From Marsupella aquatica (lineage: Eukaryota > Plantae > Marchantiophyta), in assembly GCA_973895155.1 (NCBI GenBank), contig OZ316891.1, forward strand, positions 25,357,899 to 25,421,898: a stretch of 64,000 nucleotides of DNA, written 5' to 3'. Under the pieces are notes generated by a model. That model did no database searches. It was not told the DNA's origin and worked only from the letters and a program-made list of their open reading frames with translations. The translations under genes and the position numbers were made by a program. How positions within the stretch are numbered: position 1 is the stretch's first letter; every line of letters begins with the position of its first letter. Positions 13,801 through 56,629 of the stretch are shown here, piece by piece.

Positions 13801-14065
13801 ACCTACTATCATCAACAAAACATGACATAATTCTGGACAAAAAGGAGACCAAGTTCAATCGGAACTCCAATATTTTTAGGGCGGAATACAACAATATCGA
13901 AAGACCTTTTACTAGCGCCGAGCGCTACCCAAATACTTGTTGCCAGATAAAACAACATTACAAAATGCCGGCCTTTAACTAGCGCCGACCGCTAACAAAA
14001 TATTTGTTACCGTTAAAAACGGCAACCCAAAAATGCCCGTTCAATGTCTAGTAGATTGAAAAGAA

Positions 14066-17000
14066 TTATTCTAAACCATGCGAATTCCTCCTTCCTATGA
14101 TGTACTGGAGTTCTCCAACAGTCAAAATTGGCTGGCTTGGTAAGACCGAATCCAACGGATCAAGCTTGAAGATTGTTTTGTAAACCCAGTACAAATGTTT
14201 ACAAGGCATGAAAGGTCTTCCTCAAGAATGTCGGTGAAAGAAGTCCTCACAAGAGCAACAAGGGAATACGCAAATCTGCACCCAATAAGTGTTTGCTGTC
14301 CTTAGATGAGCGTGTGTTTGGATGAGTAATCGTTTCCCATATGAGTTCCCCGAGGAAACGTCCAATTCTGTGATAAGAGTCATTGTTTCCTTTGCAGCAG
14401 ATTTGATCCTTCTATGGTATTCCTGAGTAAGATTTGATCTGGGGTTCATTGGGCGCCCATTCCTAGTTCGAGCACGGATGTTGATTTGTGCCATATTGAT
14501 CTTCTTAGGAAAAATATCAATATTGATTCTCAAGTCAAAAGGCGTAGGGTTGGCAGGCATGCTTTGGTGGTGTTGTCTGGAGATTGCAACACCCTGTTCT
14601 TCCAGGAAACGTAACTCCAAGTTTGACAAATGTGTTCCTGTTAGTACTGGCAAGGAAACTGGATAAGGAGGCAGGTTAGCAATGCCTTGACGTGGGCGGC
14701 TTTTCCAACAACTGCCGTTGGGGCAAAACCACACGAACTCGGCATGAGGTTCACTCCTAAACAGGCGATGTCCCTTCGCAACAATTCCAATCACTCCAGC
14801 ATTAGAAGGATATCCAACCTTCTTAATCCAGTTTCGACACTCATCACAATCGCATCTACTTGACAATGTCCCATTACACTGAGGACCAGGCCCAAGTCTT
14901 GAAATTCGACGAAGATGCCAAGACCCAGGTTCAACGACCGACTCCAAAAGCGACGTGTCAGGGAGGACTGGAGTTTGGTCCATTTGAGAGACTTCTGGTA
15001 ATGTGGAAAATTCTTCACCTGGACCAGAAGCAGATGCGTCTGGCAAGTCACTCGGGCCCTCACTCCCAGTCAAATCGATCGGTGTCTCAAGAACACTTGG
15101 TGGAATATGAGAAAATGGAGCCGAGTTCAGATTTCTCCGTTTCAAACCCCGTGTATTCGGTGTTGTTATCAGAATGGTGTCATGACGATGGGAGTCTTGT
15201 GCCAAGACATTCCTTGTCGCTGGACCTTTTCTTTTGATAGATTTGGTTACAAAATCACCGTTCAATGGAGTACTCCTCTCCAAATCAAATTCCGCCGCAT
15301 TAGCTAGTAGCAAATTAGAAGCCTCTTCGAACAATCAAGGGGATCCAGCCAGGTCCGCTGAACGGAAAGCTAGTTCAAATACCATAGGACCTGTTCCTCT
15401 ATGTAACCCATCCCGATAGGCAGTATAAGCAGCAATTTGAGAGATTGCACGATTGTGGTCAATTTTACAACCCTCAAATAATCCAACAGTTTTCTTCCCT
15501 TGCCAAGCTTTCATGATACCATGAACTGCCTCAGATCCAGTGCAGTTAGGAATCATCCCTCCTTCTTGTGCACTTTTGCTCTGCAGGATGGCCAGAGTTC
15601 GTCAAATCTCAAAATCTACTTTTGGAAGATAAGTTGATATTCTTCAACAATATGTATCAATTAAAGGTAGCGCCAGGCGCAGACCAAAACGCTGAGAGAA
15701 TCAAGAAAAAAAAGGTGTTAATAATAGCGCCAAGCGCTAGTATGGAAGTGTCTATTCAATAAGTAAAAAATGGTGATACTTACAAGTCGAATAAAATTTC
15801 CCCATTGCCACCATCTTACAACCCACCAAGAGATCCATCCCTGCAGCATCCGAAGCTTCCCGGGAATGCAATTGCTAGATCTCCACCACAAATCAATTTC
15901 TCGGGAAATCCTGTAAGCTTCGACAAACGTTGATGCATTTCTGAGCTTGTCCTAGAGGAGGTGATGCTCAGAACGTTTGTCTTCAAGCACTCCTTCGATA
16001 GAATGGCGGTGCAAAGATTGGTAAAAATGAAAAGCATCCGATCTCTCTTTCTCCGGATTTGGATGGCCCCCAAAGAAAATGTTTCTGACCGCACGCCATC
16101 CCGACTGAGCATTATCAGCCATGAATCCATGAATTTGAACATCATCTACCCCATTTTCTAAAGCGACCTCGATCATTAATCTCCATGCTTTCTCAAGAGA
16201 TTTAGTGTCCTCCGCTTTCAGCTCACACGTAAATATTGTACATAAAGCTCGATAGTTATGGTCATAAACATGGGCGCTAAAAGTACTCCAATCTTTTGAC
16301 ATTCGTTTCATGACATCAAAACTCACCCACGCACCTTCAAGGGGTCCACCCTTTTTCATCTATCGCAACAAATCTACTCCAGATCCATGCCCTTTGATCG
16401 TCATTTTGAAAATATGAGCTCGGTCCTCCTTAGAACCTTGCCCTGGAAGTAGATACCTTTGAACAAACGGGAACCTGACATTCTTCTGCATCCAAACCAG
16501 ATATTCGAGGTCTCCTTGCCCGGCCTGATCTTTCCGGACACTCTTAAACAAGGCAGAGAACTTCTGCGGAGTCGAAACAAGCATAAGTGATTGCCAAATC
16601 TCACTCTCTTCCATCTTTGAGATGTCATCAATAGATTCATCTAGTGCATCCTTAAGAGATCCAGTGATCGCATTTTTCAAAACACTTGGCGAGGAAGAAG
16701 GATTCTTCAAATGCTCTTTCCGAATCTCTTCGACCGCTATCATCTCCAAACTTCTAGACCAGACCTTTCAACACGGATGGTTATGGACACCCATATGCAC
16801 TGCAAGGCATGACATATGTTGCGTTGTCGCTGAATCCAGGAGAACTTGTGGGTACATGTAAAACATTTTTGCGGAACAGGAGTCCAAACAGAACGGAAGT
16901 TGAAGACAATACCGACAAACAATCCCTCCTGAATCAATCAACTTTCCTGGACAATGTTGGCCTCCCAACTTGGGGGTCCCTTCCCAGGAGCTACAATTCC

Positions 17001-17811
17001 TACCATTTGTTCTGGTATAAAACTCGCATGATTTGTTTTGGCATTCAAGTGATCCGCTACAGCTGACTTTACCAAACTCCCACATCTTCTTCGGCAAAAC
17101 ATTTGCAGAAGTAGGAAGAATTCGAGTCTAGAGATAGCAATCCTTCGAACGGTCCATGTTAAGGAGACGCTTCCCCTTTGAACCCACACAATCGACAAGC
17201 GGAAGCTCAAATATGACATTGCCGTTGTAAGTTTTGGGAAGAAATTCTACTTGCTCGTGCTTGAAAGTCTCTGATCGTACAAATCGAGATAGCTCACTTT
17301 GACCAGTCGATTTCAGAAGGGCGTCTAATGCGCTCCTTTTGTAAACTATAGCAAGAGAAGGAGATTTAAGAAGCTTGTCACCTCCACTGTCTTCCGTTGA
17401 GGTACTACATTGATGCATTGGAAATGAATTCATTAACAAATGACACTCTTCACGCTTGATGTTCCTAATGTCAATTGGCAATTGAGAGACAGGGGAAGAG
17501 TCATCGCCATCAGACGTGAGGTCAATGACCTCTGTTGGTGCATCCACCGTCTCTAGTTTCACTACTTTTCCTCGGAGGAAAAACGTGTACTCGACACCGC
17601 AGTGCAGTTCCCACCATTTTTGACCAAAAATGTAAAAAGAATTCACTACCCCCTCGGCAACTGTCCCTAGGCTTTGAATGTCTTTCCTCCTAACATCAAA
17701 CCTTCCGCAAAGATAATCCTCACTCACACGCTGATTACCATCTCCGTAAGTCACAGGAACGCTAATTACGTCTCCCATTTCAGGACATTTTACCCTAATA
17801 ACCCGTGACAT
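14066..17811 (-). pseudogene. MULE transposase (~1180 aa; GCM/WRKY-like Zn domain, DDE core, C-terminal SWIM); intron ~15581-15783; about six in-frame stops
   Basis: Contiguous in-frame ORF pieces; CSGSLECQNKSC..CRYC..C..HMGVHNH; WVSFDVMKR (D1), GFMADNAQSGWRAVRNIF..DAFHFYQSL (D2), SEAVH (E); YWVQI..CSCEDF..PCKHLYWV SWIM; GTAAGT..CTGCAG intron. Confidence 0.85.
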
Positions 17812-18794
17812 TCTGACAGAATGGCAAAATGGTAAGGGTGTTTCCAGCCTCGGTTTATTATTTCCCTCAAGTAAATCATCAAGAACAAAGAAACCACACC
17901 CGGACGCAAAAAATATTTAGAACTTTACCGTTAACTCAACGGATAAATTTGAGATAAATGGCAACGGATGACCGTTGAAAACAAAATGTTTCCGTTAATT
18001 TAATGGACATTTCACAACGGAGAATAATAGCACCAAGCGCTAGCAAAAACACTACCAGATCTCTGTTCAAAAGCGTGAAATTTAAAATCAGAATTCTGCA
18101 AAATGTGACATTGTTTGATACTATACATTGATAGCGCCTGGCGCTATTATTGCGGAAAATGAAAAAACAAGAGATTCTCATATATATGATCGAACATTTG
18201 AAAGATTTTACGAATGTTAGACAACAATCAATAATAGCGTCGGGCGCTATTATAGAAACTCAGTGGATTGCTAGTATTTCAGGGTCAACTCACTAGAAAA
18301 TATGTATACTTTTTGGTCTAGGAGGAGTGGTGTTTATGATATCACCGGGCGCTATTAATGTTTATCCTCCGAGTTGTCTGTCCAACGGATATTTGTAACG
18401 GTAACTTTATGCCTGTGTGACCATTTTTACCTCTTGAATGAATGTTAATTATGAGATTCTTCGTTACATTTGAGTAGCCACGTCAGTACTATATGCCAAC
18501 TGTCCCTTTCTCTTTGGTTCGATTGCTCGATTACCTGATATTTTTCATCATGGAACATTCATATTTAAGTCAGCTGTCGGTCTTTTTAGGATCTTTTTCC
18601 TGTCAAAGGTCAATTTGACAGATCTGATCTTGCTGTGTGATTTGCTATCGTGTCATTCTATTGCGGGAAAACGGTCTCCATACTGGCTGTTTCGGACGTG
18701 GGTCGTATCTATTCGGTTGCAACAGTACGTTACAGGCCTTCGTGAGTGGCTGAGAACTCTCCAAATTTTAGGGCCAAAGGCTCTTTATCCAGAT

Positions 18795-20767
18795 ATGGAC
18801 AACACTTCCATGGGTAATTCTCAAACATCGGAGACATCTTTCGCTGGTTCTGTTTACACACGACGCGTTACTCGCTCGATTGCATCGCATTCTCTTCGGA
18901 ACTCTGCGCAGACTTTCCCAACGCAGAGACGAGGTATCATGGAGAATTCGAGTGATTTCATCATGGAAGACGGGTGTGAAGGGTCGCTAGCAATGGGAGA
19001 CGTGATTGCCAAACATGCAATGTCGTTCGGCACTGATTTCAGAGGAGAGCCCAAGGACCCTCCGCGTATACCGCTTTGTCGCCTAGTCAATATGGAAGTT
19101 GTTCGGACTCTCCAGAAGGAGAGTGCTTCAATCAAGAAGCTAAAAGAATCATTTCGCAGTTCCAGTTACAACTCCTCCATTGGAATGCGATTCTATGTGC
19201 AACCCGCTGATTCTGAAGGCGTCATCCAATTTTGTACCCCCGAAATCCGTGAGAGTTGGGATGCTGTCTGGACAGTCCAGAATGAGAAATTTGAAGCGGA
19301 CTGTGAAGCTGATCCAGATTTCCTTGTCTTAAAAGACAAGATGTTTTGTGTGTTCGACGGGAATCATCGTCTGTATTCCTGGTCGCAGGTAACAAAAGAG
19401 AACCCCAAAAATGTCAAGTACCACCCTCGTGTGCTATGCACTGTGTTCAAGGGAGATCGAGGTTCTCTTATTGAGATTGAAGCCGCCATGCACACTATCA
19501 ATCAGTAAGTTTGGTCATTTTCTTTGATTTGGACAAATTTTCAATTGTGGGATTTTGGTTAGCGTTTGGCGCTAACAAATTATGGTTGTATACAGATTGG
19601 GGCAAGCCGTTGTAGAACCGTCGTGGATCCTCGATGCTGACAGAATTGGTCGGATTCTGTCCCATGACCTTGATTATTACAAGACGATAATTGACGCCAG
19701 AAACTTCAAACGCTTTGAGGCAATTCGCGCAAAGACAAGGAAAGGCTCTTGGTATACGAAGAAGATGCCTTTGGAGGCCTTGTGTACATCTTGTGTGAGA
19801 ACAAGATCAAGTCATACTCTGTGCAATTCAAACTGGACATGGCGACTGCAAACACTCAAGGGAGGCCGTGGTCAAAGGATGAGGTCACCAAGCGTCATGC
19901 GGCAATGATGAAGGAGGCCACAAAAGAATGGAGCGTGAAGACCTCAAAGATCACTCCACTCCTTAGCCCCGAATTCGAAGATTTTCTGTCAACATGTGCG
20001 GAAATGTACACGCTGACAGAGAAAAACAAGCGATAACGGAAAGCAGACGCTGTGGTTTGCACGATGGATCGTGCTCGTCTCTTTACTGCCGTCTCAGCTT
20101 TGAACCCAAAGTTGTGTTCCACTCTTCTTGTGGCGCATTGCACGCCCGAACTTTGCAAGCAATTTTTCCATCCGCCGAGTGTGAACGACGAACCAGTTAA
20201 ACAATGGTGTCACACTTGGCACATGTGGAGTTGGATCGAAGGAATTTCAATGGGGATGATGCAGACAGCTCTCAGACAAGTTCAATCTGTCATGCCTCCG
20301 GAACGACTTGTCACAGGAGGTGTAGAAACTTTTGATGCTTTAGTGCAGACCATTTGCAATGATTTCAAAAGTTACGGAGATACAGTCAAGGCAAAGTTTT
20401 TTAACACAATGTGGGCATCAAAGTACGGGGAGAAAGAAGATTTTTCTTCCCAAAACCAGAAGCGGGCAAAGAGATACCTTTATCGGTTCTTCTTGTCGAT
20501 GGAGAGCAATTCTTCTGAATATTTCTGGGCTTATCCTCCTGCGTTCCAGAGGTGGTCGGTCATGGATGGGGATGATTTCAGTGAGGTTTACTCGATGTAT
20601 CCTGCAGAAGGAGCCAATCCTCCACGTGACATTTCCGTTTGGGAGCGAACAAACTGTCCCTGGTACCTTGATACTGATAAGTGGGATACACCTTTTGATG
20701 AATCTGAGAAAGACGCCTTTTTGAAATTGTCCAAATCTTTAGTTCCTCGCAAATGGTTGTCTGAGAT
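18795..20767 (+). pseudogene. MULE accessory gene, 5' half: ParB/Srx-like domain plus helical region (intron 19505-19595)
   Basis: RIPLCRLVNMEVVRTLQ..IKKLKESF..FCVFDGNHRLYSW (ParB-type DGxHR); frame-preserving GT..AG intron; frameshift ~19770, stop 20034; cut by Gypsy B and resumes in frame at 53228. Confidence 0.75.
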
Positions 20768-23700
20768 TGTGGTGCGTCCCATGGCTCCCTAAACCCAAGA
20801 AACCCCCCAGCACAAGCCAATTCCCGCAGGTTTCGCGCTTGGCGGGGCCGTTTCCGCGGCTTAGCGGCATGGGACGCTGCTAATCTCTTCTACATCTATT
20901 AACATTTTACACACATATACTGGACAGATCCTTCATCGGGTCATGAGATATGAAGCCGGCCTACTCTAGGCCTTCCCTTTATTTTTCTCTCCTTTGGTTA
21001 GGTATATTTGGATTCCGCCGCCGGAATGATCCCCAATAGGCTTGGTTAAGCCGCTAAGACCTCTCTCAGCTCGACACATCCAACTCTCACTCCCTTGCTT
21101 ACTTTCCTTTCCCTATTAGTTGATGTGGGCACTCTTCACACAAGTTAATGCGACACACAAATAGTAAAATGACTCCTTCTGACTGAGTCATACCATGCAC
21201 TTGCCATACAAACAGTACATCTCATACACAAGCTCTGCGAACTAAGCCGTGAGGCCAACTCTATTCAGCTCTTAGGCATGAGGAAACATGAATATACACA
21301 AGGTCACGGTATAACTAACCGAGAGCTTCTCTTACTACTTGATCCCAGCCGGCTGGTGCAAACTAAAAACTTGCTAAAGAAGAGGCCCTGAGCTCCCCGC
21401 AGCCTAGGTATTTATCCTGGTAGCGGATCCGCCTAATTCTTTGCAGCGTAAGCCTAATCTACCTAACAGTAATCTACCTGTCCGGAGCTACCTATGTACA
21501 GCAAGGCAGGGGCACAAGTGTTGCTCCTACCAGTGGAACCGCAATCCCACAAAGCTAAGTGTCAGGGCCGCTCCTGGTCCTGATCCTAATCTTAAACCTG
21601 GAGATCAGCGCCCGCCCGGCCCACTCACGCCTCCTACCTCCACGTCCGCCCTTCCTAAAAGGAACGGCGCCCTTGCACCGTCACGATACCGGTGGTGGAT
21701 CCTCAATGGATGCCCCCAACGCTTCCTCCTCAGCCACTGCCGTTGGCCCGCCTACTGACAGATTACCTGCCCTTGACCAAGTCAACTCTCCCTCGGCCTG
21801 ACTGGGTCCATCTTCGGCTTCGGCCTCGACACCGGCCTCGGCAATACCCACGGCTTCGGCTTCAGCCACTCCCACGGCTTTGGCTTCACCTTCTTCTAGG
21901 GTAGTTGGATCCTTAGCCGTGACCTTGTCTGGGGTCGGTGCTGGGTCTACCTCCTTGGTCACCACGGCCTGTGGAGTCGTATTACTCTTTGACCCAGAAG
22001 GTTTCCGCTTCTTCTTCGTTGCCGGCTCGGCAGCTGGTCCCTTCCCCTTCCCACTTACTTTCAGCACTGGTGCAGGTGGCGCGGTTTGTTCTTCAGCCAG
22101 TACCACTCCTGGTAACTGGTTCGCCCCAACGGGAGATGGACCTGCTGCAGCTAAGCATTTAAATACTATGGCTTGTTTCTTTAGCCGCTCCGTTTGGTTG
22201 TCGGCCCGCCGCTGTAGGTTCTCCATCTTCCTCGTGATTTCCTCCAACTCCTCCTGGGTCTCATCCAGGTCCTTACGTGCCCCCTCCAGCTCTCTATGGG
22301 CTTCCTCCTGCTCTTTGTGGGCTTCTTCCAATTCCTTCTTCAAGGTAGCCCTCTCCTCCTGGGTTGCTCTTAGCTCTTTGTCGAGCTCTGTCACGATTTC
22401 AGACTCCATTTTATCCATCTTGGCATAAGTCTGACCGAGCATATCGTCCTTCTCCTTTAGGTCGGCTTTGAAGCTGGCCATTAGGGATGCAAGCTCCTGC
22501 TGCAGCGCAATAATCCCTTGATAGGATTTCCCTAACTCGGCCTCCTTCTGCTCAAGGGCTCCGCGGCTTTTCTCGAGCTCCCCCTTCAACGCCCATTTCT
22601 TTCTTTGGGTCTCCGCCATGACCCGGTTGTTGACTGCTATATGGGCCTCCTCTACGTCTCTCAGCTCCTTCTTCCATTTCTCCCTGTCCTTGATTGCGTC
22701 GGCCAATTCTCCTTGGGCCTGAGTCAGTTTATCCTTGATAATCTGACTATCCGCCTGCGCTATGTCCAACTGCCCCTGCATGATATTTAGCTCATGCCGT
22801 TTAATCCGCAGCTCATCTTGGGCTTTCTTGGCCGTCCTTAGATCTTCAATCTCGGCTTCCATCCTCCTAAGCCGTCGGATGACCTCGTCCTTCTTGCTTC
22901 TCTCTAAAGCCACCGCTTCTTCTAATTGGTGCTTCTCCAACTGCTCCCTATGGAAAAAGGGTCCTACCTCCAACTCCTCCCCAAAGATGCCGAGCGCAAG
23001 TTCCCCACACATCTCACCATACTCCATGGCTCTATTCTTAGCGTAGGTGGAGTAAGTAGAGGTGATCGGCATCGCCCATCGCGGCCTCTGCTCCCAAGCC
23101 GTCTTGCGGATCTCTTCAATCGTGGCTAGAGGTTTGCTTCCTTTTTTGGCTAGCCGCCTGATGTCCTCCGGCCAATCTACTCCTGGTAAATCCTTTTCCC
23201 TAGCCAGGGCTGCCTCCTCTCCCTGCCTGATTCGCTCCTGAAATTCCTGCACTGTCTGTTTTATGCCGTCAAAGCTCGGGGGAGCAACATCTGGTGGAGG
23301 AGACTCAGGGCTACTCTGCTGGTTGGGGTCCCCTCGTACTACCCTTGGAAGTGTGGGGATAAACCGGCCACAGGTCCTTACTCCTGGAACGTGATGGTCC
23401 GACCCATAGCCGGAGTTATCATGGCCGCAGTCCTCCACTGCCTCCTCTACTTCTTCTACTTCCGGCTTCTCCCTCTCTTCTTCGTTGGTAGGAGCTTCCG
23501 ACAATTCTGCCTCAGATTCAGAGCTTGAGACTCCGGTAGAGGGGTTTTCCCTTCTAAGTCTGCTTAAGTTGACCTCTGGGGCAGTGTCCTGCATTGTTGT
23601 CATTGTCATTGTCGTTGTTGTTGCCGATCTCCTTTCTTTCTCCAGTAGTTTAAGCAGATTCTGCATGCCTGGTTGCTGCATCGGCAAGTCTTCCTTCCTT

Positions 23701-25343
23701 GGCTTAAACACCTGCTCAATCGTAGGGCTAACAGGTGGTTGAGGCTTTTCTGCTACCGGCCTCGGTGCTGGAGCTTCCTCGGGTGCCCTTACCTGCAGAG
23801 GAAGTACTGGGGCAAAGGTCTGACCTCTGGCATACCGGCACAACAGCGGCATGTGATAGCCAAGCCGCGACATGCTCCCCATGCCGATTACCTGCTGCTC
23901 CTCCTTTAGGATCTTCTTCAATTGGTTGAGGAGGTAGCCGTTGTAGTCCCGGCTTGGGTCAGGCCTTTCTGCCAGATAGACCTGTGCCTTGCCGATCTCC
24001 GCTCTCGGCAAGTTACAATGCATGGTTACCCGCAAGAAGTCGATCATCTCTCCTATGTGCGGGTTGGTGCAGGTGTTTCTGAAGAAGCCATTCTTCGTTG
24101 ATGGTCCGGGAAATGACCGGAACTCCTTGTCAAGCAAGGTCTTCCTGGTATCAACCTTGGTCTTATTGCCTATCGGCAAGCCAAACACTTTGGCAATTAC
24201 CTTGGGAGTAAGATAGAAATCCTTCCCATATATTCTCATGCAATTGGTCTCGGGTTCCCATGACCCCACGAATTCTAATAGGTCTGAATCCGGCACCTCT
24301 GGCTTCAGCCATGGTAATCTTACAAAGGCCTCTAAGCTAGATCCGGCCATGAAGCCTTGGTACTTCTTGGTCTGCATGGCCGTAAAGCATGCATCCTCCT
24401 CCCTTGCAAAATGTAGTTGCACCTCCACCGGTAGAGTTGCCGCCCAGCCCTTCCAGGTGTCATCCTTGGTTGCATTGGCTTTAATGGGATCGACCTCCTC
24501 TACTTCGGCTTCTCCCTGCCTCCTGCTCTACTGTTCGGCTGGCTTCATTGGTGCCGCCGACCTCGTTCTTTTGGCCGGGGTGGTTTCATCGTTGACGGCT
24601 CCCTTCCTCTTCATCTCGGCTGCCGTGGAGGTTTCTCCTAACACCGTTGCTCGGTTCCACCTTTCCGTGCTACCCTTCAATTCCCAGTGTATGTCGTTGT
24701 AGTTCTTGATGGCCTCTCGAATGCCGATGATTCTGTCTTTGCAAAACAGAAGATCGTCGAGCTGATTGGAAGTAGGCGTCCACAAGAACTCGGCCTTGAT
24801 AAGTTCGCCTCCTAAGAAAGCCGTTTTCTGTAGCTCCCACAATCGAGCGAGCTCCTGTCGTTCTCGAGCTGCCCTTTCTGATTCTTTGTCCTCGTAAGTC
24901 TTGATGTACTCAGTTGCCCGTTCAAACAGGCATCCCCAGAAATGTGCCGCTTGATTGACGTTGCTCATACCCTCCTTAGGTCGATCGTCGGTATCTACTC
25001 TCTCCCCGAGTGCTTGCCTAAACAGCTGACAGTAGTTGGCCTCCCGTAGTCGTCTGCCTAGTTCGTGCTCGCAAGTGAGCCACCATCTTCTGCGAGCGCT
25101 CCTTACCCCTCTCCTCTTCCGGCCCTTCCTCCCGTTGATCCTTCCCAGCCGCCGATGCTTAGCGCGCCCTAACCCTAATCGAGTTTTCACCCCCAGTGTT
25201 TTTACCTCCGGCCTCGGCCCGGGTTCCATAGTTGCCCCTAATTATTTATATTTTCTTGTTTTGTCCCTATACTAAGGTGTTTCCAGGGTGTATTCCTGCT
25301 TTACCTACTTAACTGGCCAAGTGATTCCTGGCTAGGCATCACA
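20768..25343 (-). repeat. 3' LTR of Gypsy B (4576 bp)
   Basis: Near-identical to 31567-34026 plus 51084-53224; preceded by the PPT; TG..CA ends. Confidence 0.95.
21681..25229 (-). pseudogene. LTR-internal ORF of Gypsy B (up to ~1180 aa; PMD-like domain plus long coiled coil), one premature stop at 24528
   Basis: ORFs 24528-25229 and 21681-24428 in one frame; the stop is CAG (Gln) in the other two LTR copies; EFVGSWEPETNCMRIYGKDFYLTPKVIAKVFGLPIG. Confidence 0.85.
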
Positions 25344-29514: not shown

Positions 29515-29523
29515 TGCTTTTGC

Positions 29524-31497: not shown

Positions 31498-31544
31498 TAC
31501 CTATACTTCCTTTCTAACTTCATATCTCACGGCTTAAGAAATGC

Positions 31545-31562: not shown

Positions 31563-31566
31563 AAAA

Positions 31567-42884: not shown

Positions 42885-43024
42885 GTAGATTCACAGTCAC
42901 ACCCCACGCAGCAGGAAACAACAATCACTTCAACTGCGACCAACCATGACAAGATGAGTTAGTTCAAGGATCACATTTATTACAAAATTGTGATTTATAC
43001 AAAAATATGAGGGACTCCTACTCC

Positions 43025-45155: not shown

Positions 45156-48100
45156 GCCTACGCATGAGACAGATAGTACAATTTAGCAGAGTGCACAGAC
45201 AATACAATTTAGTGCAGTGTACAAAAAGTACAGTGTAGCATATAGACTAGAGTGGCAATTGCTACTGCAATGAAATGTTCACACACATGTGCAGAGTAGA
45301 CATACTTTTTGGTTTGTTGAGCCCACACTAAAAACTGATCCCCTCGTACAATAGCTCCACCTACACCTCAATTTTGTGGCTATGATTCACCAAAGGAGAT
45401 CTGCAACAAGATTTAATGCATTTGAATCACATATAACAGTCGTGACATGTAAAACAGGCATTTTTTGAACAGGATTGGTATCAAGCAGTGTGATCAGGGT
45501 TGTAATTTATACATCCTAAATAGGCTATGATAGTGAATGAGACAAATAAGTTAGGCATAAATCACTTTTTCCAGGTTATCACATGGCCCATTAATTCCAG
45601 TCTTTGAAAGGAGACTTTTAAGTGAGCTTGCTAGCCTCTTAAATTAGGATATTGTACTTAGTGCAGCCATAATAGGATAAGTTATGTACTGTTGACCCTA
45701 AACCCTGGACCCAAAATTGGTCATAATTCAAAATCTTAAGTAAATATCCTCTCTGTTCAAGTCAAAGTGTTAAGTTATAGGTCAATGGTCTCTGGTTTGT
45801 GCATGCGGTGTGACAAGTGGTCCTCTAGAGCGTGTGATCCAAACATGTGTAGACACCAAAGTGACCGGTGGTGGGGTCTGGGAGGGCAGGACAAGTGACA
45901 TTGCCAGGCACACTGCAGGATGGCGAGTGGTTCCAGATGATACATTGTGCTCTGTGAAAAAACCGACATCCAAGAGAACGGTCATCCAACTCTAGGCCAG
46001 AAGCCCTACAGGCAGGACAGTCATATTGGCAACTGTGCACACACCCTTGGGCCCTAATTTGTGGCGGGTCATGTACAAGAGACAGAAATAACAAGGATGT
46101 TGGGAAGGGTGGAGAAGCAGGTACAGGCCGACTGTAGTTGTTCCTGGCAACAACTGGGTACTCAAAGTACCATGCAGACTGGGCTGGAAGGATCCCAAGT
46201 CTGACATACTCAAGGCGCAACATCTCTGCCTTGCGTGCAAGCCGCACATGTTCAGCGTTGCGGGTCCTCACCATAAGTGTTGCTTTTGTGGAGATGTCGT
46301 GTGTTCACGTCCTCTGATAAGCACCTTCGATCAGCAAGGTGAGCAGGAGCTGTACTTGCCTCACCAACAGCAACCAACCTTAAATTATCAGTTCCCACTC
46401 ACTGTGTCATTCCATTGGTTCCAGCTAGGGGTCACAATGTAAACATAGCATGAAACACTCCTAATCAACTTGCTTACAAACTACAATATCCAGAAAGAGT
46501 GAAAGTCTCACCCTCCAGTGAGCAGCAGAGAGGTAGTTCACTAGATGTGTTGATGTGCAGTTAAACCTCCACTATTGCTTACTTCTGGTGTATGCTGCTC
46601 AGAAGAAGACATATTAGTAGCAGCAAATTGCAAATAATGGCCATAAGCAAACCGTGAGAGTTTGCAGAATGCTACGACAAATCCATCACAGCAGTGCTCC
46701 ACAGGAATGAAACCAAGCAAAATTTGGTGACCTCGGCCAATGACAAGGCCAATGTAGTGAACAATCCTTGACCGATCAGGATATGGATTGGAATTACAAT
46801 TAGTCAGCTCTTCTTCTTTGTTTTCTAACTCTGGGGGAAATGAGCATGACCAGGGAATTCTCTGAGAAATAGAAGTGCACAGGGAAAATGAAATTGGCTC
46901 ATTCAGCTCTGCAAGATGGACCATTGCAGCATACTTGGACAGTTGTTCCGCAATACATAAAATACCCTGACTTACATGCAATTGATACAATCTGCTTCTG
47001 TTGGCTGTCCTACAGCTCATGGCAGTGCCGTTGGGACAGGGTAAGTGAATATTGCCATAGCTGAAGCACATTGAGCTTGCAGCAACAAGTGAAGGAGCAT
47101 GGCCAAAAGCAGAAAAGACAGACAGGTTTTACAAGAAGAAACTAACAACCGCCAATCTGCTCAAATCCGCTGCATAGATCAAACCCTCCGAACTACACAG
47201 CCCTCCTTTGAAAACAATCCAATGTGCTTTGGCTGGTGGATGACAAGGACTGGGAGAAGAGGAAACGTCTGCACAATCAATCCAAATGACGGTACACAGA
47301 GACCAGGCACAGAGAGGATTTGTGCTTAGACAAAAACCACAAATTGTAGCATGGGCGCCATAGCATTCTAGACAAAGCACAAAACATAGAATCTATGAAT
47401 CTATGACTCATGGACTAACAAAATGATTGGGTAGCATGGCAAAAGGAAAGACAAATTTCAAAATGACAACATGGCCCGTTTCCACCATTCATTTGACGTT
47501 GCTAGGTGTCCGTAAGATGACTGACCCACAAACAATCCCGACAACCTCATCCGACAGACTGCTTTTCTAGTGTGAAGAAATACATGATTACAAGCAACAC
47601 CACGCCTCATCCAAGCAGGGAATTGAAAACATAACCATGTCATTCCTATATTGGACAGTGTCCTCTGCCATTGCACTGCATAGTTGTTATTCCATGTTGG
47701 TTGTCAATAGTTTGTTGGCTTGCCACAACCTAGATAGAACAATAAAATATTGTACATGAATACAACAAGAAAAATCTGCATACAGCGATGGCCCGGTCAC
47801 TTGAGGAAAAAACAAAACTAAGAAGGCAGGCACACGGGCAACCGAGAAAAAAAGCTAGTGGCGCCTCGCGGAGAATCCAGAATGGTAATGCCCTCGCCCA
47901 GAAGCTTGGGAAACAAAAGAGAAAAAAGCAAAAACGAGCTACCGACCACCGTCTTGACCAGGCCTGCCACAAGGTATGGCTGGAGGCTGTGGTCCCCCCC
48001 TCAGTAAAGAAAAGGATGCAGGTTGGAGCACGGGGCACAAGGCATGTTTGGATCCAGGAGGAGCAAAACAGTAATGTCAAGCAGGAAGTGTGGAGAGACC

Positions 48101-49680
48101 AATCAGTAAACAAAAATAGGGGAGAACAAACATACATCAGCAGCAACAGGAAACGAGAAAGTTGATTTAGGAGGGATTGTAGGGAGAGAGCTTTTGGTGG
48201 GCTCGGCTGTGCGTGAAATATCGGGAGATAGATGCGCGAGAGAGTGAGGAGGGTGGCAAGCGGAAGACGGGTTGGGACTGGACCCTTGGTGCCGGTGGGT
48301 AATATATGGGGTTTCAGCAGACTTGGGGCCAGTTTGAGGAGGATTGAGAAGCGCGCACCCCACGTTCTTGGGTGGTGGTTGGGTGGGGTTTTGTTTGATT
48401 GAAGAAGAAATCACCATTCTCTTCTAGAAGAAAGAAAATCACAGGAAATAGTGGACGGGAGAACAAGGCATGTAATAGAGAACAACAAGGCATGTAATAG
48501 AGACAGTGCGCAGCTCAGCTCCGAGGTCACACTTTATGATGCACAGGGGGTCCTTGGTTGCACGTAGGAGAAGGACTGAATCACTGTGGCTGCTCTTCTC
48601 TACTATCAAAGCACCCGGCTGGCAGCTCCGCAAACACTGATCGTAGCTACAATCTCTACACCGTTGATTGAAGAGCAGCTGCAGCACAGTAAGGAGCTCC
48701 CACAGCCTCCCTCTTCAAAGCTCGGTTGACCTAGCTCTACGATCGACGGAGCATGGGCGCCAGACAAAGCACAAACTGTACCATGGAGCTGGAGAAAAAC
48801 ACAGAGTAATTGAAGCCTAACAATACCCTTCTCAGCTCCTGATTGAATGAGGAAAAACACATTACAAGACACATTGCAGGCAATAGGATTTTAACAATGA
48901 AGTCTCGCCTGTGCTGACAGAATACCTGCTTACAGCCACGCGTTGCTCATCCTCCCACAGTTCGGTGGCACACTATCCAGATGGCATGACGCATGCCTTA
49001 ACTTATGACGATTTGCGCAGCTCAAATCAAGTAGGTTGTCCCCACAAAAAGACAGAGGACAACAAAGAAAAGCAATGTAGCCGTGATGTCTTACCAGCCC
49101 TGACAATGGGAGCTTCAAAGGCGGTGCACTATGGCTGAAATGGCAGCACGCTGCTCGAACACTAAAGCAACACAAAACTTGGACTCTCACCTTATGCAAC
49201 TCCTGGCTTGTATTCAGCTGGCGTTGGCCCACTCTAAGCTCCTGCGCCGCTCCGACTGCCAGTCGTTCTGTAGACGGTCTGTATCCTCCCTGACTGCAGC
49301 TCCTCCCCGCCCCCAGCTCGTCACCCGCGTCTTCTCCCCAATTTGTGGTGAGCTCCTCCTCGACCACAGCACCCTAAACTGCTTTGCCCAGCCTCTGATG
49401 GCCTTCACGTTGTTACCGATTGTCGCTCCCCACAAAGTCCACAATCCATAAACCAGGCAGATAGTGCGCCCGTAGAACAGATGCAACCCGCATGCAGCTT
49501 CACCAGCTCAATGGCAGCTCAACAGCTTAAGGGTGCAGCAAAAGGGCGTTGAATAGGTTGTCTCACCTCACCCTTCGAGAGCCGGTCATTGCAGCATCCC
49601 TAAACTCCCGATCCCTCTTCTCGGATTCCACAGAGCCGACCACAAGAAAATGGGAACACTAAACCTCACTGTAGAGACGT

Positions 49681-49812
49681 TCCCACCAAGATTACACGGA
49701 AAACCTTGCTCCGATCCCTAAGCTCCCAATCCCATCGAGAGAACACGATAAAACCTTGCTCCAATCCCTAAACTCCCGATCCCACCAAGAGAACACAATA
49801 AACCTTGCTCCG
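49681..49812 (+). repeat. ~50-bp tandem repeat (~2.6 units) in the CACTA 5' region
   Basis: AAACCTTGCTCC at 49701, 49751 and 49800. Confidence 0.8.
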
Positions 49813-50128
49813 CAAGTTGGGAATGTGGCGGGATCCCTAAACACATCAACAACCTGCTAAGTGTAAGCAAAGTTGCATAACCGGCTTGTTCCCTTCCAAC
49901 GGTCGCGCGACTCGGGTGTCCAAACGGTACTGCAAGCGGTACAGGCCCCTAGCTTGGGATACCCTTACCAAAGTCACTGGTGTTGCCGACATGGTAACGG
50001 CAAGATTATCCTGACCCTCCATAAACCCCCTCCATTCACTCAAGTGTTGTGAGTGACAACTTAGTGTAGTGTCGCTAAACAAATACTTTGGCCTTAGCAA
50101 ATATCTGTGGTGATCGAACTTCATTAAA

Positions 50129-50874
50129 CCAAACCTCTTTTGGTCACAAATAAGGCCATTTAATGAGTGATGCCCCTTGTCATCACCCTCTTAATTTATG
50201 CAATTACCCCTCCTGAACACAATTGAACATTGTCCAAATTGCCTACCCTCATGAATAATTTGTCAATTATCTTTCCCGACATATATGATGTCAATGGACA
50301 TGATGGGGAACATGATGTCAATGGACATGATGCCAACGATCCAATGGTTCCTAAACCCCCATCCCCTTAACATGCAACCCCCGACCCTTGACATCAAACC
50401 CCCCTAAACCCCCTTTAGTGAAAACCCAGCCACCCCCTAGCCTTGACATATAAACCCCCTAAACGTCTTCACAACTCGACTGTGGCCAGACTATCTTTGC
50501 AATGCCAAGGGCCATTTTTAGAGTGCATGCCGCTTGCAAGCTCAGGCTCTCAAGATCCTCCCACGGCAGCAAACAAGTTAGGGTCCCTAAACATGTTCCT
50601 TTACCCTAAACCATTGCGTCACTATTTCAATCGAGTGTTCTTTGCCTGGACAACCCCCTAACCCTAAACCCACACCCCCTTGAGACCGGTACAAATCTAC
50701 CTTTGTGCATCTTGGCCTTTTATTGATGGAGTTAGTAATCGATCCCTCCGTAGTCCACCCTCCATGAACCTCACTCCAAAACCTTTTTTGTCACAAATAA
50801 GGCCATTTATTGAGTTATGCCCCTTGCTATCTCCCTCTTTACAGAATTACCCCTCCTCAATATAAGTGAACATT
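50129..50874 (+). repeat. ~100-bp direct repeat pair (50129-50231 and ~50776-50874)
   Basis: Shared GTCACAAATAAGGCCATTTA.TGAGT.ATGCCCCTTG..AATTACCCCTCCT..GAACATT. Confidence 0.75.
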
Positions 50875-51083
50875 ACCCATGATGTGCTAGACTATTCACC
50901 GTTCACAAAGTAGCAAGGTTACTTCTCATAGTCTTTTAGTGAACCATAAAACACTAATAGTCTTTTGTAGTCTTCAACAAAACTGGTGCAATGGGTGCGA
51001 GTCGTTTCAAGTATGGAAAAAGGACTTAGTGGGCTTAGTCCTATAAGGTATGGTCTAAATTGCCCCGGATTCTACTAGTGCTA

Positions 51084-53224
51084 GCCAGGGCTGCCTCCTC
51101 TCCCTGCCTGATTCGCTCCTGAAATTCCTGCACTGTCTGTTTTATGCCGTCAAAGCTCGGGGGAGCAACATCTGGTGGAGGAGACTCAGGGCTACTCTGC
51201 TGGTTGGGGTCCCCTCGTACTACCCTTGGAAGTGTGGGGATAAACCGGCCACAGGTCCTTACTCTTGGAACGTGATGGTCCGACCCATAGCCGGAGTTAT
51301 CATGGCCGCAGTCCTCCACTGCCTCCTCTACTTCTTCTACTTCCGGCTTCTCCCTCTCTTCTTCGTTGGTAGGAGCTTCCGGCAATTCTGCCTCAGATTC
51401 AGAGCTTGAGACTCCGGTAGAGGGGTTTTCCCTTCTAAGTCTGCTTAAGTTGACCTCTGGGGCAGTGTCCTGCATTGTTGTCATTGTCATTGTCGTTGTC
51501 GTTGCCGATCTCCTTTCTTTCTCCAGTAGTTTCAGCAGATTCTGCATGCCTGGTTGCTGCATCGGCAAGTCTTCCTTCCTTGGCTTAAACACCTGCTCAA
51601 TCATAGGGCTAACAGGTGGTTGAGGCTTTTCTGCTACCGGCCTCGGTGCTGGAGCTTCCTCGGGTGCCCTTACCTGCAGGGGAAGTACTGGGGCAAAGGT
51701 CTGACCTCTGGCATACCGGCACAACAGCGGCATGTGATAGCCAAGCTGTGACACGCTCCCCATGCCGATTACCTGCTGCTCCTCCTTTAGGATCTTCTTC
51801 AATTGGTTGAGGAGGTAGCCGTTGTAGTCCCGGCTTGGGTCTGGCCTTTCTGCCAGATAGACCTGTGCCTTGCCGATCTCCGCTCTTGGCAAGTTACAAT
51901 GCATGGTTACCCGCAAGAAGTCGATCATCTCTCCTATGTGCGGGTTGGTGCAGGTGTTTCTGAAGAAGCCATTCTTCGTTGATGGTCCGGGAAACGACCG
52001 GAACTCCTTGTCAAGCAAGGTCTTCTTGGTATCAACCTTGGTCTTATTGCCTATCGGCAAGCCAAACACTTCGGCAATTACCTTGGGAGTAAGATAGAAA
52101 TCCTTCCCATATATTCTCATGCAATTGGTCTCGGGTTCCCATGACCCCACGAATTCTAATAGGTCTGAATCCGGCACCTCCGGCTTCAGCCATGGTAATC
52201 TTACAAAGGCCTCTAAGCTAGATCCGGCCATGAAGCCTTGGTACTTCTTGGTCTGCATGGCCGTAAAGCATGCATCCTCCTCCCTTGCAAAATGTAGTTG
52301 CACCTCCACCGGTAGAGTTGCCGCCCAGCCCTTCCAGGTGTCATCCTTGGTTGCATTGGCTTTAATGGGATCGACCTCCTCTACTTCGGCTTCTCCCTGC
52401 CTCCTGCTCTGCTGTTCGGCTGGCTTCGTTGGTGCCGCCAACCTCGTTCTTTTGGCCGGGGTGGTTTCATCGTTGACGGCTCCCTTCCTCTTCATCTCGG
52501 CTGCTGTGGAGGTTTCTCCTAACACCGTTGCTCGGTTCCACCTTTCCGTGCTACCCTTCAATTCCCAGTGTATGTCGTTGCAGTTCTTGATGGCCTCTCG
52601 AATGCCGATGATTCTGTCTTTGCAAAACAGAAGATCGTCGAGCTGATTGGAAGTAGGCGTCCATAAGAACTCGGCCTTGATAAGTTCGCCTCCTAAGAAA
52701 GCCGTTTTCTGCAGCTCCCACAATCGAGCGAGCTCCTGTTGTTCTCGAGCTGCCCTTTCTGATTCTTCATCCTCGTAAGTCTTGATGTACTCAGTTGCCC
52801 GTTTGAACAGGCATCCCCAGAAATGTGCCGCTTGATTGACGTTGCTCATACCCTCCTTAGGTCGATCGTCGGTATCTACTCTCTCCCCGAGTGCTTGCCT
52901 AAACAGCTGACAGTAGTTGGCCTCCTGTAGTCGTCTGCCTAGTTCATGCTCACAAATGAGCCACCATCTTCTGCGAGCGATCCTTACCCCTCTCCTCTTC
53001 CGGCCCTTCCTCCCGTTGATCCTTCCCAGCCGCCGATGCTTAGCGCGCCCTAACCCTAATCGAGTTTTCACCCCCAGTGTTTTTACCTCCGGCCTTGGCC
53101 CGGGTTCCATAGTTGTTCCTAATTATTTATATTTTCTTGTTTTGTCCCTATACTAAGGTGTTTCCAGGGTGTATTCCCGCTTTACCTACTTAACTGGCCG
53201 AGTGATTCCTGGCTAGGCATCACA
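51084..53224 (-). repeat. 5' LTR of Gypsy B, proximal part; carries the 5' part of the LTR-ORF (from 53110)
   Basis: Matches ~23203-25343; ORF open until the CACTA junction. Confidence 0.95.
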
Positions 53225-53227
53225 GAG

Positions 53228-55042
53228 ATGAAGGAAGGATTGGTGGGAGAAGTTGAAGCTTCTGCAGTGGAGCTTCAAAAAATATGTGAGACTGAAGTCT
53301 TACATGTTGACAGGAGCCAAAAACCTCGCGCAAAAGTAAAAGTTGATACAGGATTGAATAGCCCATCCATGAGATCCAGAAGAAAACGTAAGTTATATGA
53401 CTTTTTGAAGTTCTTCTTGATCTTTTCCTCTGAAATTCACTTAGTTGTTTGCATTGATTTTGGTTAGCGCCAAGCGCTATTTTAAACTATTAAATGTATA
53501 CTCATACAAGAGAATTTAGAAAGTAAATGTTTGGCTAGCGTCGGGCGCTGTTATAGTTTCCCCAGTGTTCTTACCTTTTCGATTCTCTGTAGGGGGTAGG
53601 AAATCAGAGGGAGAAGAAACTCAAGATGCAAAGACGACCATTACCCCTGATCAATCTGAAGCAAACACTGAGGCTGCCGATGCTACCCAAGAGCAGACTC
53701 CTCCTGCAAATACCAACATTGATCGTCCGATTGATGCCACAAGCACCAAAAAAAAGAAGAAAAAAACTCTTGATCTTGGTTCTTCTTCTAGAGATTTGTA
53801 TGCATGTACTGGCGTCCAACGAGAAGTTGGTCAATTCAAGTCCAAAGTTTGCCGTCATATATTTGTTGAGTCCAGTCTAATGGACTTTTTTGATTCTGTT
53901 TTTACAAAAGAGACTAAACCCAGGTGGGTGACGAATGTCGAGAAGTGGGGAAAAGACTTAGTGACACTTGGTCTCCGGGAGAAAGGGGTAGTTAGGGGAG
54001 GCAAGTTGAGATCTTTTGGGGTGGATGCGGGTTTTGTCTACCTACCGACAGGTCTACGACCTTCTTTGCTTCACCGAAAATCGCCAAAGTGGAATGTACC
54101 GGATCACTGAATGGTTGGCTCTTTCTTTCGGGCAATGGACCCATTTCTTGTCGATGATGGGTTGTTAGCAGTTTTGCACACTGGGGAGTATGACCAGATC
54201 TCCCAAGTAATTTTGGCCAGCCAAGATTCCCAAAAGTTCCAGTGCCTCAAAACGCTCAACGTTGTTATGGGTGCCCCAATGTACATGGCCAAAAGCGATT
54301 GTCAGGTAATTGTCCTTTTGAATCAAGAGAATCATTTGCTAGCGCTTGGTGCTATTAATAGATCTCATTTCATGTTTGATGTCCTCGTGTACGCAGGGTC
54401 TTTTGGGTAGCGCCAGGCGCTATTAATATATGTTACCAAATCTCATATTGAATATTGTTTATTTTCCAGGTTTTCACCTTAAGACTTGATATCTTTAGTC
54501 GAGTTACATCGAAGGTTAGGGTCCCCAAAGATTCAAAGTTCAAACCTTTGTCTTCAACCGAGGACCCTTCAATCACAAACCTCATTGGGCTGCAGAGTTT
54601 GAAGAAGGATCCTGTTCCAGAAGCTGCATTTGCAGCGAATGCACGACTACCGGTTGGCTTCATGCAGTCTGTCCTGGAGTTAATTTCTCGTCCGGGAGAT
54701 ATTATTATGGACTGGACGGTTGGGTCAGGAAGTACATTTGTGGCTGGTGATTTTTGTGGCCGTTTCATCCTTGGGATTGAGAATCGCAAGGACTTTGTTT
54801 CTATTGCAGAGAGGATATACACTGACTTGCTCCTCCCGAAAGAATCGAGTGAGGCTGGTCCGAGCAAAGACATGGAGAAAAAAGTGAAAGATAAAGTTTG
54901 ATCTGTTCTGAATTTTGATTCTGAAGAAGAAGAAGACGATGTACCTGATGAAGAGGCCGGGATTGATGTCCAGAAAGAAGGAGAGAAAAAGGATGAGGGG
55001 AATTCAGAAGGAGAAACGGAAGATTCAGATTCTTTTGAGTAA
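53228..55042 (+). pseudogene. MULE accessory gene, 3' half: beta-class (N6_N4_Mtase-like) DNA methyltransferase fold plus acidic tail; introns 53388-53592 and 54306-54469
   Basis: VDAGFVYLPTGL..KWN..FFRAMDPFLVDDGLLAVL (motif IV-VI region), then RLPVGFMQSVLELISRPGDIIMDWTVGSGSTFVAGDFCGRFILGIENRKDFVSIAERI (motif X-I-II); stops at 54108 and 54899. Confidence 0.78.
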
Positions 55043-56629
55043 TGCCCGTAAGCTCCTTTACATTACTTAACTTTCCGTTTTCTTTTTATCTTGTATACTT
55101 GAATTACTGGAATCTCTCGAAGTGTACTTAGTGTTTCAACTGACTCGCAGGTCAGAGTGGAATCTTCGCGAGAGGTTCAATCTGCGAAGGAAATTTTCAA
55201 GCAAAGTCCTAATTACCCCTGAGAAACCATTTGTATTGCCTTCATACGCAGAGTATGCCGCTCGCAAAGAAGAGAGTAGAAGAACCTTGACTTGGGAGAA
55301 TAAGGGCTTGCGATTGAGACGTGGTTTGGATAGAAAGTTCATCCGTTATCCATTTGTCGATGATATGGCACAAAATGAATTTATCGACAATGAAGCAGAG
55401 AGTACGGATAGATTGGAGAGTAGTGAGTCGGAATCTGGAGATTAGATTACATTGGATTAGGTTAGTTTAAATTAGATTAGTTATATATTCATGATTTTAA
55501 AACAGATTACCTCCTCCAAAATAGTAGCGCCGGGCGCTACTTATTGTACGCATCAATTTTATATAAATATGAAGTGGGAAAGGTATTAGCTTCCGCATAT
55601 CTTTTTCTGATGTGAAGTGTAGTGTAATGTTTTTCAAACTGCAAGTACATGTATTGATGTACGATAAAAATCCTTAATGACCTTGACTACCATACGTACC
55701 TGTTTCCCTAGGTTGAATTCCTTCGCAACGGTAGGTATTTCGACACCCTCTTCTATTTTACACCCTCTCTGTTTGACATCGCCGATGTTCAAGGATTTCT
55801 AGGAGCTCTTTTGCATTTAGCGCCGCATAGACATTGATCCAGAGACCATGGAGAAAGGAAAGCAAGTCTTGTGTGAGAGAACTTCCGGCCCCACAAAGTT
55901 GGAAGAAAAAGCTTCAATTGATTTGCTTGCCTCAGAGGTCCCGATCGACGAGACTCCTCACCCTGTCACCTCAATGGAGAGGAATCGACTATGGCTGGCC
56001 TCGGACAAGGGGATAAGCCTTTGAGCAAAACCAGAATCATGCCCTGATTCGTCTCCTCCCCGGTCTTTTAGAGAACGGTTCTCTATTCACGATCCGGATC
56101 CTTCCGATGTCTATAGGGTTGGACGGACGGCGTTTTTCAGGGGCATTCAACAATGGACCAGGCGAGTCGGATTTTCTGACTCCAACATTCCAAATTGCAG
56201 GCTGAGGAGTCGCCTTCCAGGACCGCGTTTTTTTGCTGAGCGAGAGGATGGATTTCGCCAAGACGAGGATCGCTTCAATGCGGGAGTCGATGATGAGTGT
56301 CATTCATCGACGTCCTGAGATTGTTTGAAAGATGGAGTCTTCTTAAAGACTTTTGCGATAGTAGCGCCTGGCGCTACCGCCATCGGAGATTGAAGGTGTT
56401 AGGTTGTAGTCTTGGTTCTCCATGTTTTCTTGCGAGCTTACTACATCCCAGTTCTTTAGCCGTTTTTCTGCTTGCGGTATCTCTTAAGATTTTGTATTGT
56501 CGTCGGGCTTTGTGTTTTTGCTACCATGTAACACACATTTTAAAGTAGCACCAGGCGCTATTAATATACTCGGCATTTTTATACACCCTTTTTATTGATG
56601 GATGTCACAAATATTGTGTAAATTTCCTC

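What the first reader, a model, noticed from the sequence alone, without database searches (positions are those of the whole stretch)
13913..56560. Sixteen TAGCGC-N3-GCGCTA palindromes confined to the MULE's non-coding DNA, including every intron: candidate cis-sites
Seen: copies at both subtermini (13913, 13980; 56546), in the transposase intron (15668, 15725), the divergent intergenic region (18028, 18132, 18235, 18340), all three introns of the ParB-MTase gene (19560; 53465, 53536; 54340, 54408) and the 3' region (55525, 56362). Several extend to longer palindromes (ATAATAGCG..CGCTATTAT). I saw none in the identified exons or in the ~53 kb of other elements. The flanks mostly differ, so the motif itself is what is conserved, despite its mutable CG dinucleotides. 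Established: ParB dimers load at ~16-bp palindromic parS sites; Arabidopsis VANC proteins bind short motifs accumulated in non-coding regions of cognate VANDAL MULEs to remove silencing. Inference: a parS-like recognition code for the element's own accessory protein or transposase, i.e. a protein + site system.
Basis: partly seen in the sequence, partly recalled or inferred. Interest (0 to 1): 0.88.

Follow-up and report, generated by a model that had tools for sequence, protein, structure and literature searches.

The report
Transposon studded with its own palindromes
A broken jumping gene carries 16 copies of one mirror-image DNA word, at least 15 of them outside its coding parts, and a distant relative has the same word one letter shorter in the same intron, so the word is likely a docking tag for a protein that the element itself makes, possibly to escape the host's silencing.

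Summary
The motif is real. All 16 sites are at the stated places (chance 0.7), inside one dead 10.5-kb Mutator-like element with a 9-bp target duplication; none lies in the other 53.5 kb. The consensus is TAGCGCC-N-GGCGCTA, and the spacers between sites are unrelated. A sister element (transposase 66% identical) has three copies of the same half-site with no central base in the same intron, whose other sequence does not align. Two corrections: a candidate fourth intron has no site, and site 56362 may be coding. The accessory protein's methyltransferase lacks the DPPY catalytic motif in all 15 aligned sequences, and its ParB label rests only on sub-threshold hits. Best reading (0.5): docking sites for the element's accessory protein, likely VANC-like anti-silencing. 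Rivals are the transposase, hairpins or a host factor. No binding was shown. The pairing of a ParB-like gene with inverted repeats is already proposed for red-algal Plavaka elements, so this is a new variant. It adds a named candidate site and a natural specificity variant that make the idea testable.

The parts
13724..56699 (.). Mutator-like DNA transposon, 10,514 bp once the nested insert is left out; 9-bp target duplication AAAACTACA at 13715-13723 and 56700-56708; short subterminal inverted repeat with ACAGGAAA-type direct repeats
   Evidence: many related contigs laid in runs X1-X5
14040..17811 (-). Transposase pseudogene: exon 1 15784-17811 (4 in-frame stops), intron 15581-15783, exon 2 to about 14040 (stops, frameshift); D..D..DxxH..E pattern and a C-terminal SWIM-like Cys/His motif read by eye
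   Evidence: intron position shared with L001 and with the read-through ends of homologues; no Pfam hit
18798..55445 (+). Accessory pseudogene: ParB/Srx-like N-terminal exon (about 18798-19504, DGNHR), exon 19596-20767 plus 53230-53387, methyltransferase-like exons 53593-54305 and 54470-55047, candidate last exon 55151-55445; start codon uncertain
   Evidence: (PF01555, E 2.5e-8)
20768..53224 (-). Nested LTR retrotransposon (TG...CA, 5-bp duplication GAGAT) with a CACTA element inside; splits the accessory gene and holds no site
13913..13994 (.). Two sites (13913, 13980) 3' of the transposase, near the left end
15668..15739 (.). Two sites (15668, 15725) in the transposase intron
   Evidence: related contigs carry the consensus T at 15681
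18028..18354 (.). Four sites (18028, 18132, 18235, 18340), 103-105 bp apart, between the two divergent genes
19560..19574 (.). Site in accessory-gene intron 1 (19505-19595)
53465..53550 (.). Two sites (53465, 53536) in accessory-gene intron 2 (53388-53592)
54340..54422 (.). Two sites (54340, 54408) in accessory-gene intron 3 (54306-54469)
55048..55150 (+). Candidate fourth intron WITHOUT a site
   Evidence: splice signals and in-frame join; 1-2 base indels in related contigs; no motif
55525..55539 (.). Site 3' of the accessory gene
56362..56376 (.). Site whose coding status is unresolved (possible third ORF in about 55592-56398)
56546..56560 (.). Site near the right end

Best explanation
The 16 palindromes are confined to one Mutator-like element and are likely double-stranded docking sites for a dimer of that element's own accessory protein, which would mark cognate copies and likely help them resist host cytosine-methylation silencing. 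Shown: the motif, its confinement, its symmetry up to the central base, its presence in related copies, the same half-site without the central base in a sister family, and the loss of the DPPY motif. In this dead copy the sites are now decaying.
For: Confinement and statistics. Sister element L001: transposase 66% identical, same intron position, 3 sites reading TAGYGCY-GGCGCTA with different outer arms, 0 in its 1,761 exon bases, and no blastn alignment of the intron. Three contig joints show motif pairs with new 33-35 base spacers, seen in runs of two species labels (table 5c). The bases next to the centre are complementary (25 of 32 half-sites match consensus, the other 7 by transition) although they could not pair in a hairpin, which favours two-fold recognition of duplex DNA. 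The terminal inverted repeats lack the palindrome and carry a different short repeat: 4 of the 5 ACAGGAAA copies in the element are within 55 bp of an end, a better candidate for transposase binding. The layout (introns, intergenic, terminal non-coding) matches VANC21 binding (PMC5735166, passages), whereas the AtMu1 transposase and TnpA bind at termini (bioRxiv 10.64898/2026.08.24.746577, sections 4 and 7). The host shows CG>CHG>CHH decay. With motifs masked the element keeps more CG (mean o/e 0.75, 10 windows) than the rest of the window (0.56, 52 windows, p 0.008); the nested CACTA is at 0.20-0.70.
Against: No binding, methylation or RNA data. Only one sister element with DNA, and it lacks the accessory gene region, so co-variation of site and protein is untested. 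The ParB assignment is weak: best E 0.014-0.05 in three libraries, no match to chromosomal ParB profiles, folds failed, and no DNA-recognition domain was identified. CG retention shows no gradient with distance from the sites (0.84, 0.65, 0.76, 0.78, 0.51), and the first 10 kb of the window, mostly another retroelement, keeps as much CG (0.70-1.0). A candidate intron lacks a site. Intronic departures are biased to C>T on the sense strand (8 to 1, p 0.04, post hoc), and one L001 site sits in a perfect 30-bp-arm palindrome; both suit a hairpin reading.
Confidence: 0.5

Rival explanations
1. The palindromes are binding sites for the transposase (its N-terminal Cys/His domain), used for synapsis or for self-activation.
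For: Sites occur near both ends. The AtMu1 transposase binds cognate motifs and hypomethylates termini without any accessory factor. The only sister with DNA is linked to the motif through its transposase gene.
Against: 11 of 16 sites are in introns or between the genes. The end sites are not symmetric (189 bp from the left end, 139 bp from the right). The terminal repeats lack the motif and hold another repeat. Published transposase binding is at terminal repeats.
Confidence: 0.2
2. The palindromes act as RNA hairpins in introns and UTRs, or as DNA cruciforms, read by shape and not as duplex sequence.
For: The 4 transition changes in stem positions of window intronic sites and the 1 in L001 all leave G-U pairs on the sense strand. 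The L001 intron folds at z -12. A change of spacer is cheap for a hairpin.
Against: Sequence, not just pairing, is conserved, with no compensatory change. The inner bases are complementary though they would lie in a loop. The window's transposase intron folds no better than shuffles (z -0.7). Sites also lie between the genes. Sense-strand C>T bias can come from transcription or U-rich introns (own knowledge). No Rfam family reached its threshold.
Confidence: 0.12
3. The element has amplified a site for a host transcription or chromatin factor.
For: Transposons can spread host factor sites (own knowledge, recalled for E2F in Brassicaceae MITEs). Site 19560 contains TTTGGCGC, an E2F-like word (recalled consensus).
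Against: None in 53.5 kb of other elements. The spacer differs between sister families, which a conserved host dimer would not easily allow. Only 1 of 16 sites has the E2F-like word.
Confidence: 0.1
4. The sites are neutral leftovers of local duplication or self-templated palindrome repair.
For: Some variants recur (18028 is the reverse complement of 54340). Motif CG sites decay at the neutral rate in this copy (4 of 64 against 40 of 820, p 0.55). The long L001 palindrome suggests fold-back copying.
Against: Spacers are unrelated, and the half-site survives in an intron that otherwise no longer aligns. Neutral decay is expected in a dead copy.
Confidence: 0.05

Closest known systems
Plavaka PAG3 of Bostrychia moritziana (bioRxiv 10.1101/2025.02.11.637652; passages and section 8 read; supplements not seen)
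   Same: Eukaryotic DNA transposon with a ParB-like accessory gene and nearby inverted repeats, proposed (not tested) as its binding sites.
   Different: There: EnSpm-type element, ParB fused to a 2OG oxygenase, repeats in tandem arrays beside the gene. Here: Mutator-like, ParB-like fused to a methyltransferase-like domain without DPPY, single sites spread over introns, promoter region and ends with unrelated spacers.
Sola1-1_Ec32 accessory gene of Ectocarpus (PMC12477816; passages read)
   Same: ParB-like plus N4/N6 methyltransferase gene of about 1,100 aa on the strand opposite the transposase; proposed to bind and modify its own element.
   Different: Sola superfamily, brown alga; the passages read name no target site and do not report loss of the catalytic motif. 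Homology to the protein here was not tested.
VANDAL/VANC of Arabidopsis (PMC5735166, passages; PMC10398659, abstract)
   Same: Mutator-like element whose accessory protein binds family-specific short motifs in introns, intergenic and terminal non-coding DNA; motifs differ by a few bases between families.
   Different: VANC motifs are 8-9 bases and sit in tandem repeats; 'palindrom' does not occur in that paper's text. Here they are 15-base palindromes without tandem repeats, and the accessory protein is of another kind.
KorB/OB of plasmid RK2 and VirB of Shigella (PMC11790492, passages; PMC10653881, abstract)
   Same: ParB-family CTP-binding proteins acting in gene control: KorB loads at palindromic OB sites and slides; VirB is an anti-silencer. 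The OB oligonucleotide also has TAGC...GCTA arms.
   Different: Bacterial; CTP binding, clamp formation and a DNA-binding domain are shown there and none is shown here; the spacing of the arms differs.

Membership tests
Mutator-like elements (MULE) | 8-9 bp target site duplication | tested here: met
   AAAACTACA on both sides; 8-9 bp TSD as a MULE trait in PMC5225508
Mutator-like elements (MULE) | Terminal inverted repeats | tested here: inconclusive
   Only a short (about 26 bp) inverted repeat starting 11-12 bp inside each end; not a long TIR
Mutator-like elements (MULE) | DDE transposase of the MULE family with CxxH-type and SWIM motifs | tested here: inconclusive
   FDVM, FMADN, DxFH conserved in 12 sequences and a Cys/His C-terminus read by eye; no Pfam MULE or SWIM hit
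ParB/Srx superfamily N-terminal domain | GxxR nucleotide-binding motif (recalled) | tested here: met
   FDGNHR invariant in 8 of 8
ParB/Srx superfamily N-terminal domain | Significant profile or fold match | tested here: inconclusive
   Sub-threshold only: ParB-like phrog_1033 in 5 of 8 (best E 0.054), DGQHR in 3 of 8 (0.05), DUF1015 in 1 of 8 (0.019); no match to 30 chromosomal ParB domains; model pLDDT 45, best Z 4.7
ParB-parS-type systems | CTP-dependent loading at the palindrome through a helix-turn-helix domain | not testable with these tools
   No binding assay; no DNA-binding domain identified in exon 2
Beta-class N4C/N6A DNA methyltransferases | PF01555 domain with motif IV before the SAM-binding motif I | tested here: met
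   PF01555 E 2.5e-8; DWTVGSGS aligns with CcrM and DpnA motif I in a homologue; order IV then I
Beta-class N4C/N6A DNA methyltransferases | Catalytic (D/N/S)PP(Y/F/W) motif | tested here: not met
   Replaced by xLP(T/N/L/C)G, x(F)PTH in one, in 15 of 15 sequences; aligned to the DPPY position by hhalign, E 0.006 but probability only 6%; SPPY shown to be required in N4CMT (PMC8885841)
VANDAL/VANC anti-silencing systems | Family-specific motif in non-coding regions | tested here: met
VANDAL/VANC anti-silencing systems | Motifs carried in tandem repeats | tested here: not met
   Spacers unrelated in 28 pairs
VANDAL/VANC anti-silencing systems | VANC-homologous protein | not tested
   No direct comparison with VANC; the domains found are of another kind
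VANDAL/VANC anti-silencing systems | Sequence-specific loss of methylation in trans | not testable with these tools
   Only indirect CG-content data, mixed

The most novel reading that the evidence does not exclude
A plant-type transposon family uses a bacterial-style ParB clamp as an anti-silencer: the accessory protein loads at the palindromes, spreads along the element with CTP, and its catalytically altered methyltransferase domain shields or reads cytosines. Sister families stay orthogonal by changing the spacer of the palindrome by one base, which would be a programmable, family-specific epigenetic address code.
Probability: 0.2. Interest if true: 0.9.

Novelty: new variant of a known kind. 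Interest (0 to 1): 0.6.

Why it matters
Published work proposes that ParB-like accessory proteins of eukaryotic transposons bind and modify their own element, but the passages I read name no target word for the methyltransferase type and report no test. One of them calls VANDAL the only transposon known to do so. This element gives a precise candidate site and a natural variant (same half-site, spacer 1 versus 0), so one binding experiment with cognate and non-cognate sites could settle it. If true it would be an independently evolved anti-silencing system and a possible tool for targeting methylation changes. The loss of DPPY also argues that these proteins need not be active methyltransferases.

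Tried and rejected
No host genome is held, so no genome-wide scan was possible. No RNA holder listed. Homologue search for proteins longer than the ParB exon found none (weak evidence). Scans of viral contigs for relatives found none. The prokaryote scan gave one 18-residue hit (L087), not used as a relative. The exact 15-mer in viral contigs gave 85 stretches, in the 80 listed one site each, read as background; the L001-type long palindrome and a paired-site pattern gave 0. The metagenome scan gave 1 relative among 70 candidate stretches. Two folds of the ParB-like exon were unusable (pLDDT 30 and 45) and the fold search was uninformative. PDB and phage sequence searches with that exon gave nothing significant. 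The protein atlas did not complete, so that test is missing. Intron read-through in 27 homologous proteins showed no translated motif. Rejected: tandem-repeat origin of the 104-bp spacing; active 4mC/6mA marking as the default reading; protection of motif CG sites in this copy; local CG retention around the sites. No complex prediction was run. Literature searches found no paper describing this motif or a Mutator element with this gene pair and sites; the library lacks most subscription papers, and Iyer 2011, cited for green-algal cases, was seen only as a reference entry.
Full report
Observation. The 16 sites are at the coordinates given: 7 exact, 13 within one mismatch, 16 within two (chance 0.69, largest 4 in 100 shuffles). 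The fuller consensus is TAGCGCC-N-GGCGCTA. The central base is free (6 G, 6 A, 4 T). 19 of 224 positions depart, 14 as C>T or G>A, and 4 sites match all 14 positions. A weight matrix trained on the sites scores them 21-34 and the next place 8.8 (circular, but it shows no further weak sites). An unbiased palindrome count singles out this word in this element only.

The element. It runs 13724-56699 between 9-bp duplications and measures 10,514 bp without a nested LTR retrotransposon (20768-53224, 5-bp duplication) that splits the second gene. A transposase pseudogene on the minus strand and an accessory pseudogene on the plus strand are divergent. The Mutator label rests on the 9-bp duplication and on motifs read by eye; Pfam gave no transposase hit. 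Differences between the nested LTRs fall at CG (about 10%), CHG (about 3%) and CHH (0-1%), which I read as plant-type methylation (inference). The family is multi-copy: 964, 836, 2,876 and 193 contigs were laid on the left part from four runs under three species labels.

Where the sites lie. 7 are in four introns whose positions are supported by homologues ending or starting there, 4 are between the genes, and 5 are in 3' or end regions. None is in 7,194 bp of exon (compartment bounds there were within 3 bases of those fixed). A candidate fourth intron of the accessory gene (55048-55150) has no site. Site 56362 may be coding: a minus-strand frame over 55592-56398 has 8 stops, 2 of which read Trp in related contigs, and a plus-strand frame has 2 stops in about 190 codons. 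Neither has a Pfam hit, so this is unresolved.

Conservation. Of 1,555 differences found only 40 were shown. Three fall in sites: 15681 and 19566 move to the consensus in related contigs, and 19570 breaks a CG in some. Three joints in that call show motif pairs separated by 33-35 bases not found in the stretch laid; which element those contigs belong to is unknown. The strongest test is L001, the single relative found in the metagenome scan (1 of 70 candidates). Its transposase is 66% identical in the core. Its intron is at the same position and does not align by blastn (masked local score p 0.047 against simple shuffles). It holds three sites, TAGYGCY-GGCGCTA with TATTGC/GCAAT arms. The half-site is the same and the central base is gone. 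No spacer-3 site occurs in L001. No spacer-2 site occurs in the element; one 2-mismatch match lies outside it at 6119. This is one sister only, and the contig does not reach an accessory gene.

The candidate reader. The N-terminal exon has 7 homologues (40-70% identity) with FDGNHR invariant. Three libraries give sub-threshold hits: a ParB-like PHROG, the DGQHR family and DUF1015; that the last two belong with ParB/Srx is recalled. A profile of 30 chromosomal ParB domains did not match and folding failed. The label is therefore plausible, not established. The C-terminal part is a PF01555 domain with a SAM-binding loop. The place of DPPY reads xLP(T/N/L/C)G or a close variant in all 15 aligned sequences (register from a weak hhalign match), so canonical amino-methylation is unlikely.

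Mechanism. I favour duplex recognition by a dimer of the accessory protein (0.5). Symmetry extends to bases that could not pair in a hairpin. Most sites are far from the ends, and the ends carry a different short repeat. The layout mirrors VANC21 binding, while transposases and TnpA bind termini. Anti-silencing is the likeliest purpose by analogy. The only sequence hint is that the element is less CG-depleted than most neighbours, and it is mixed: no gradient around sites, and another retroelement is as CG-rich. In this copy the motif's CG sites decay neutrally, as expected after death. Against the duplex reading stand a sense-strand C>T bias in intronic sites (8 to 1, post hoc) and a 30-bp-arm palindrome in L001.

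Comparison with what is known. A ParB-like accessory gene with nearby inverted repeats is proposed for red-algal Plavaka elements (the preprint's supplementary figure of the repeats could not be seen and may bear on how similar they are). A ParB-methyltransferase accessory gene is described in Ectocarpus Sola1-1. ParB-HTH methylase fusions in chlorophytes and chytrids are noted in PMC4738411 (passages). VANC and TnpA are the tested anti-silencers; KorB and VirB are the bacterial ParB-family regulators. It works like VANDAL/VANC in layout but fails the tandem-repeat feature and has another protein, so I do not file it there. Earlier AI notes of this scan report similar gene-plus-palindrome pairs in other transposons and in phages. 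They are unchecked leads, and they lowered my novelty rating.

Verdict. A real, family-specific motif; a new variant of a proposed but untested kind of system; interest 0.6 because the site and its natural variant make the open question directly testable.

Noticed in passing
window 34027-51080: A 17-kb CACTA element (CACTA...TAGTG, 3-bp duplication CTA; Transposase_21 and DUF4218) inserted in the 3' LTR of the nested retrotransposon. It carries an ORF with a BRCT domain (43025-43888, E 6.5e-14) and is strongly CG-depleted.
   Followed up: partly
window 20768-25343; second LTR 31567-34026 plus 51081-53224; third copy 56818-60460 (inverted): The nested retrotransposon has LTRs of about 4.6 kb that themselves contain a 948-codon open frame (21681-24527, minus strand) with no Pfam hit. 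A 90-93% identical partial copy lies just outside the right end.
   Followed up: partly
L001 1171-1232: The middle site of the sister's intron is the centre of a perfect palindrome with 30-bp arms; Rfam miRNA models hit it only far below their thresholds.
   Followed up: partly
window 55592-56398: Possible third ORF of the element; strand unresolved; no family hit.
   Followed up: partly
window 18028-18354: The four intergenic sites are 104, 103 and 105 bp apart, about ten helical turns, with unrelated spacers. Other pairs (57-90 bp) show no common phase.
   Followed up: partly
window 120-12101: A Gypsy-type element (gag, RT, integrase; 120-6100) with a 638-codon ORF of no known family (6971-8887), next to a Copia-type element (10041-13064). 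The first 10 kb keep nearly undepleted CG.
   Followed up: no
all 16 sites: Of the two cytosines in each half-site's CG, one changed in 4 of 32 half-sites and its partner in 0 of 32; not significant, and L001 has one change at the partner.
   Followed up: no
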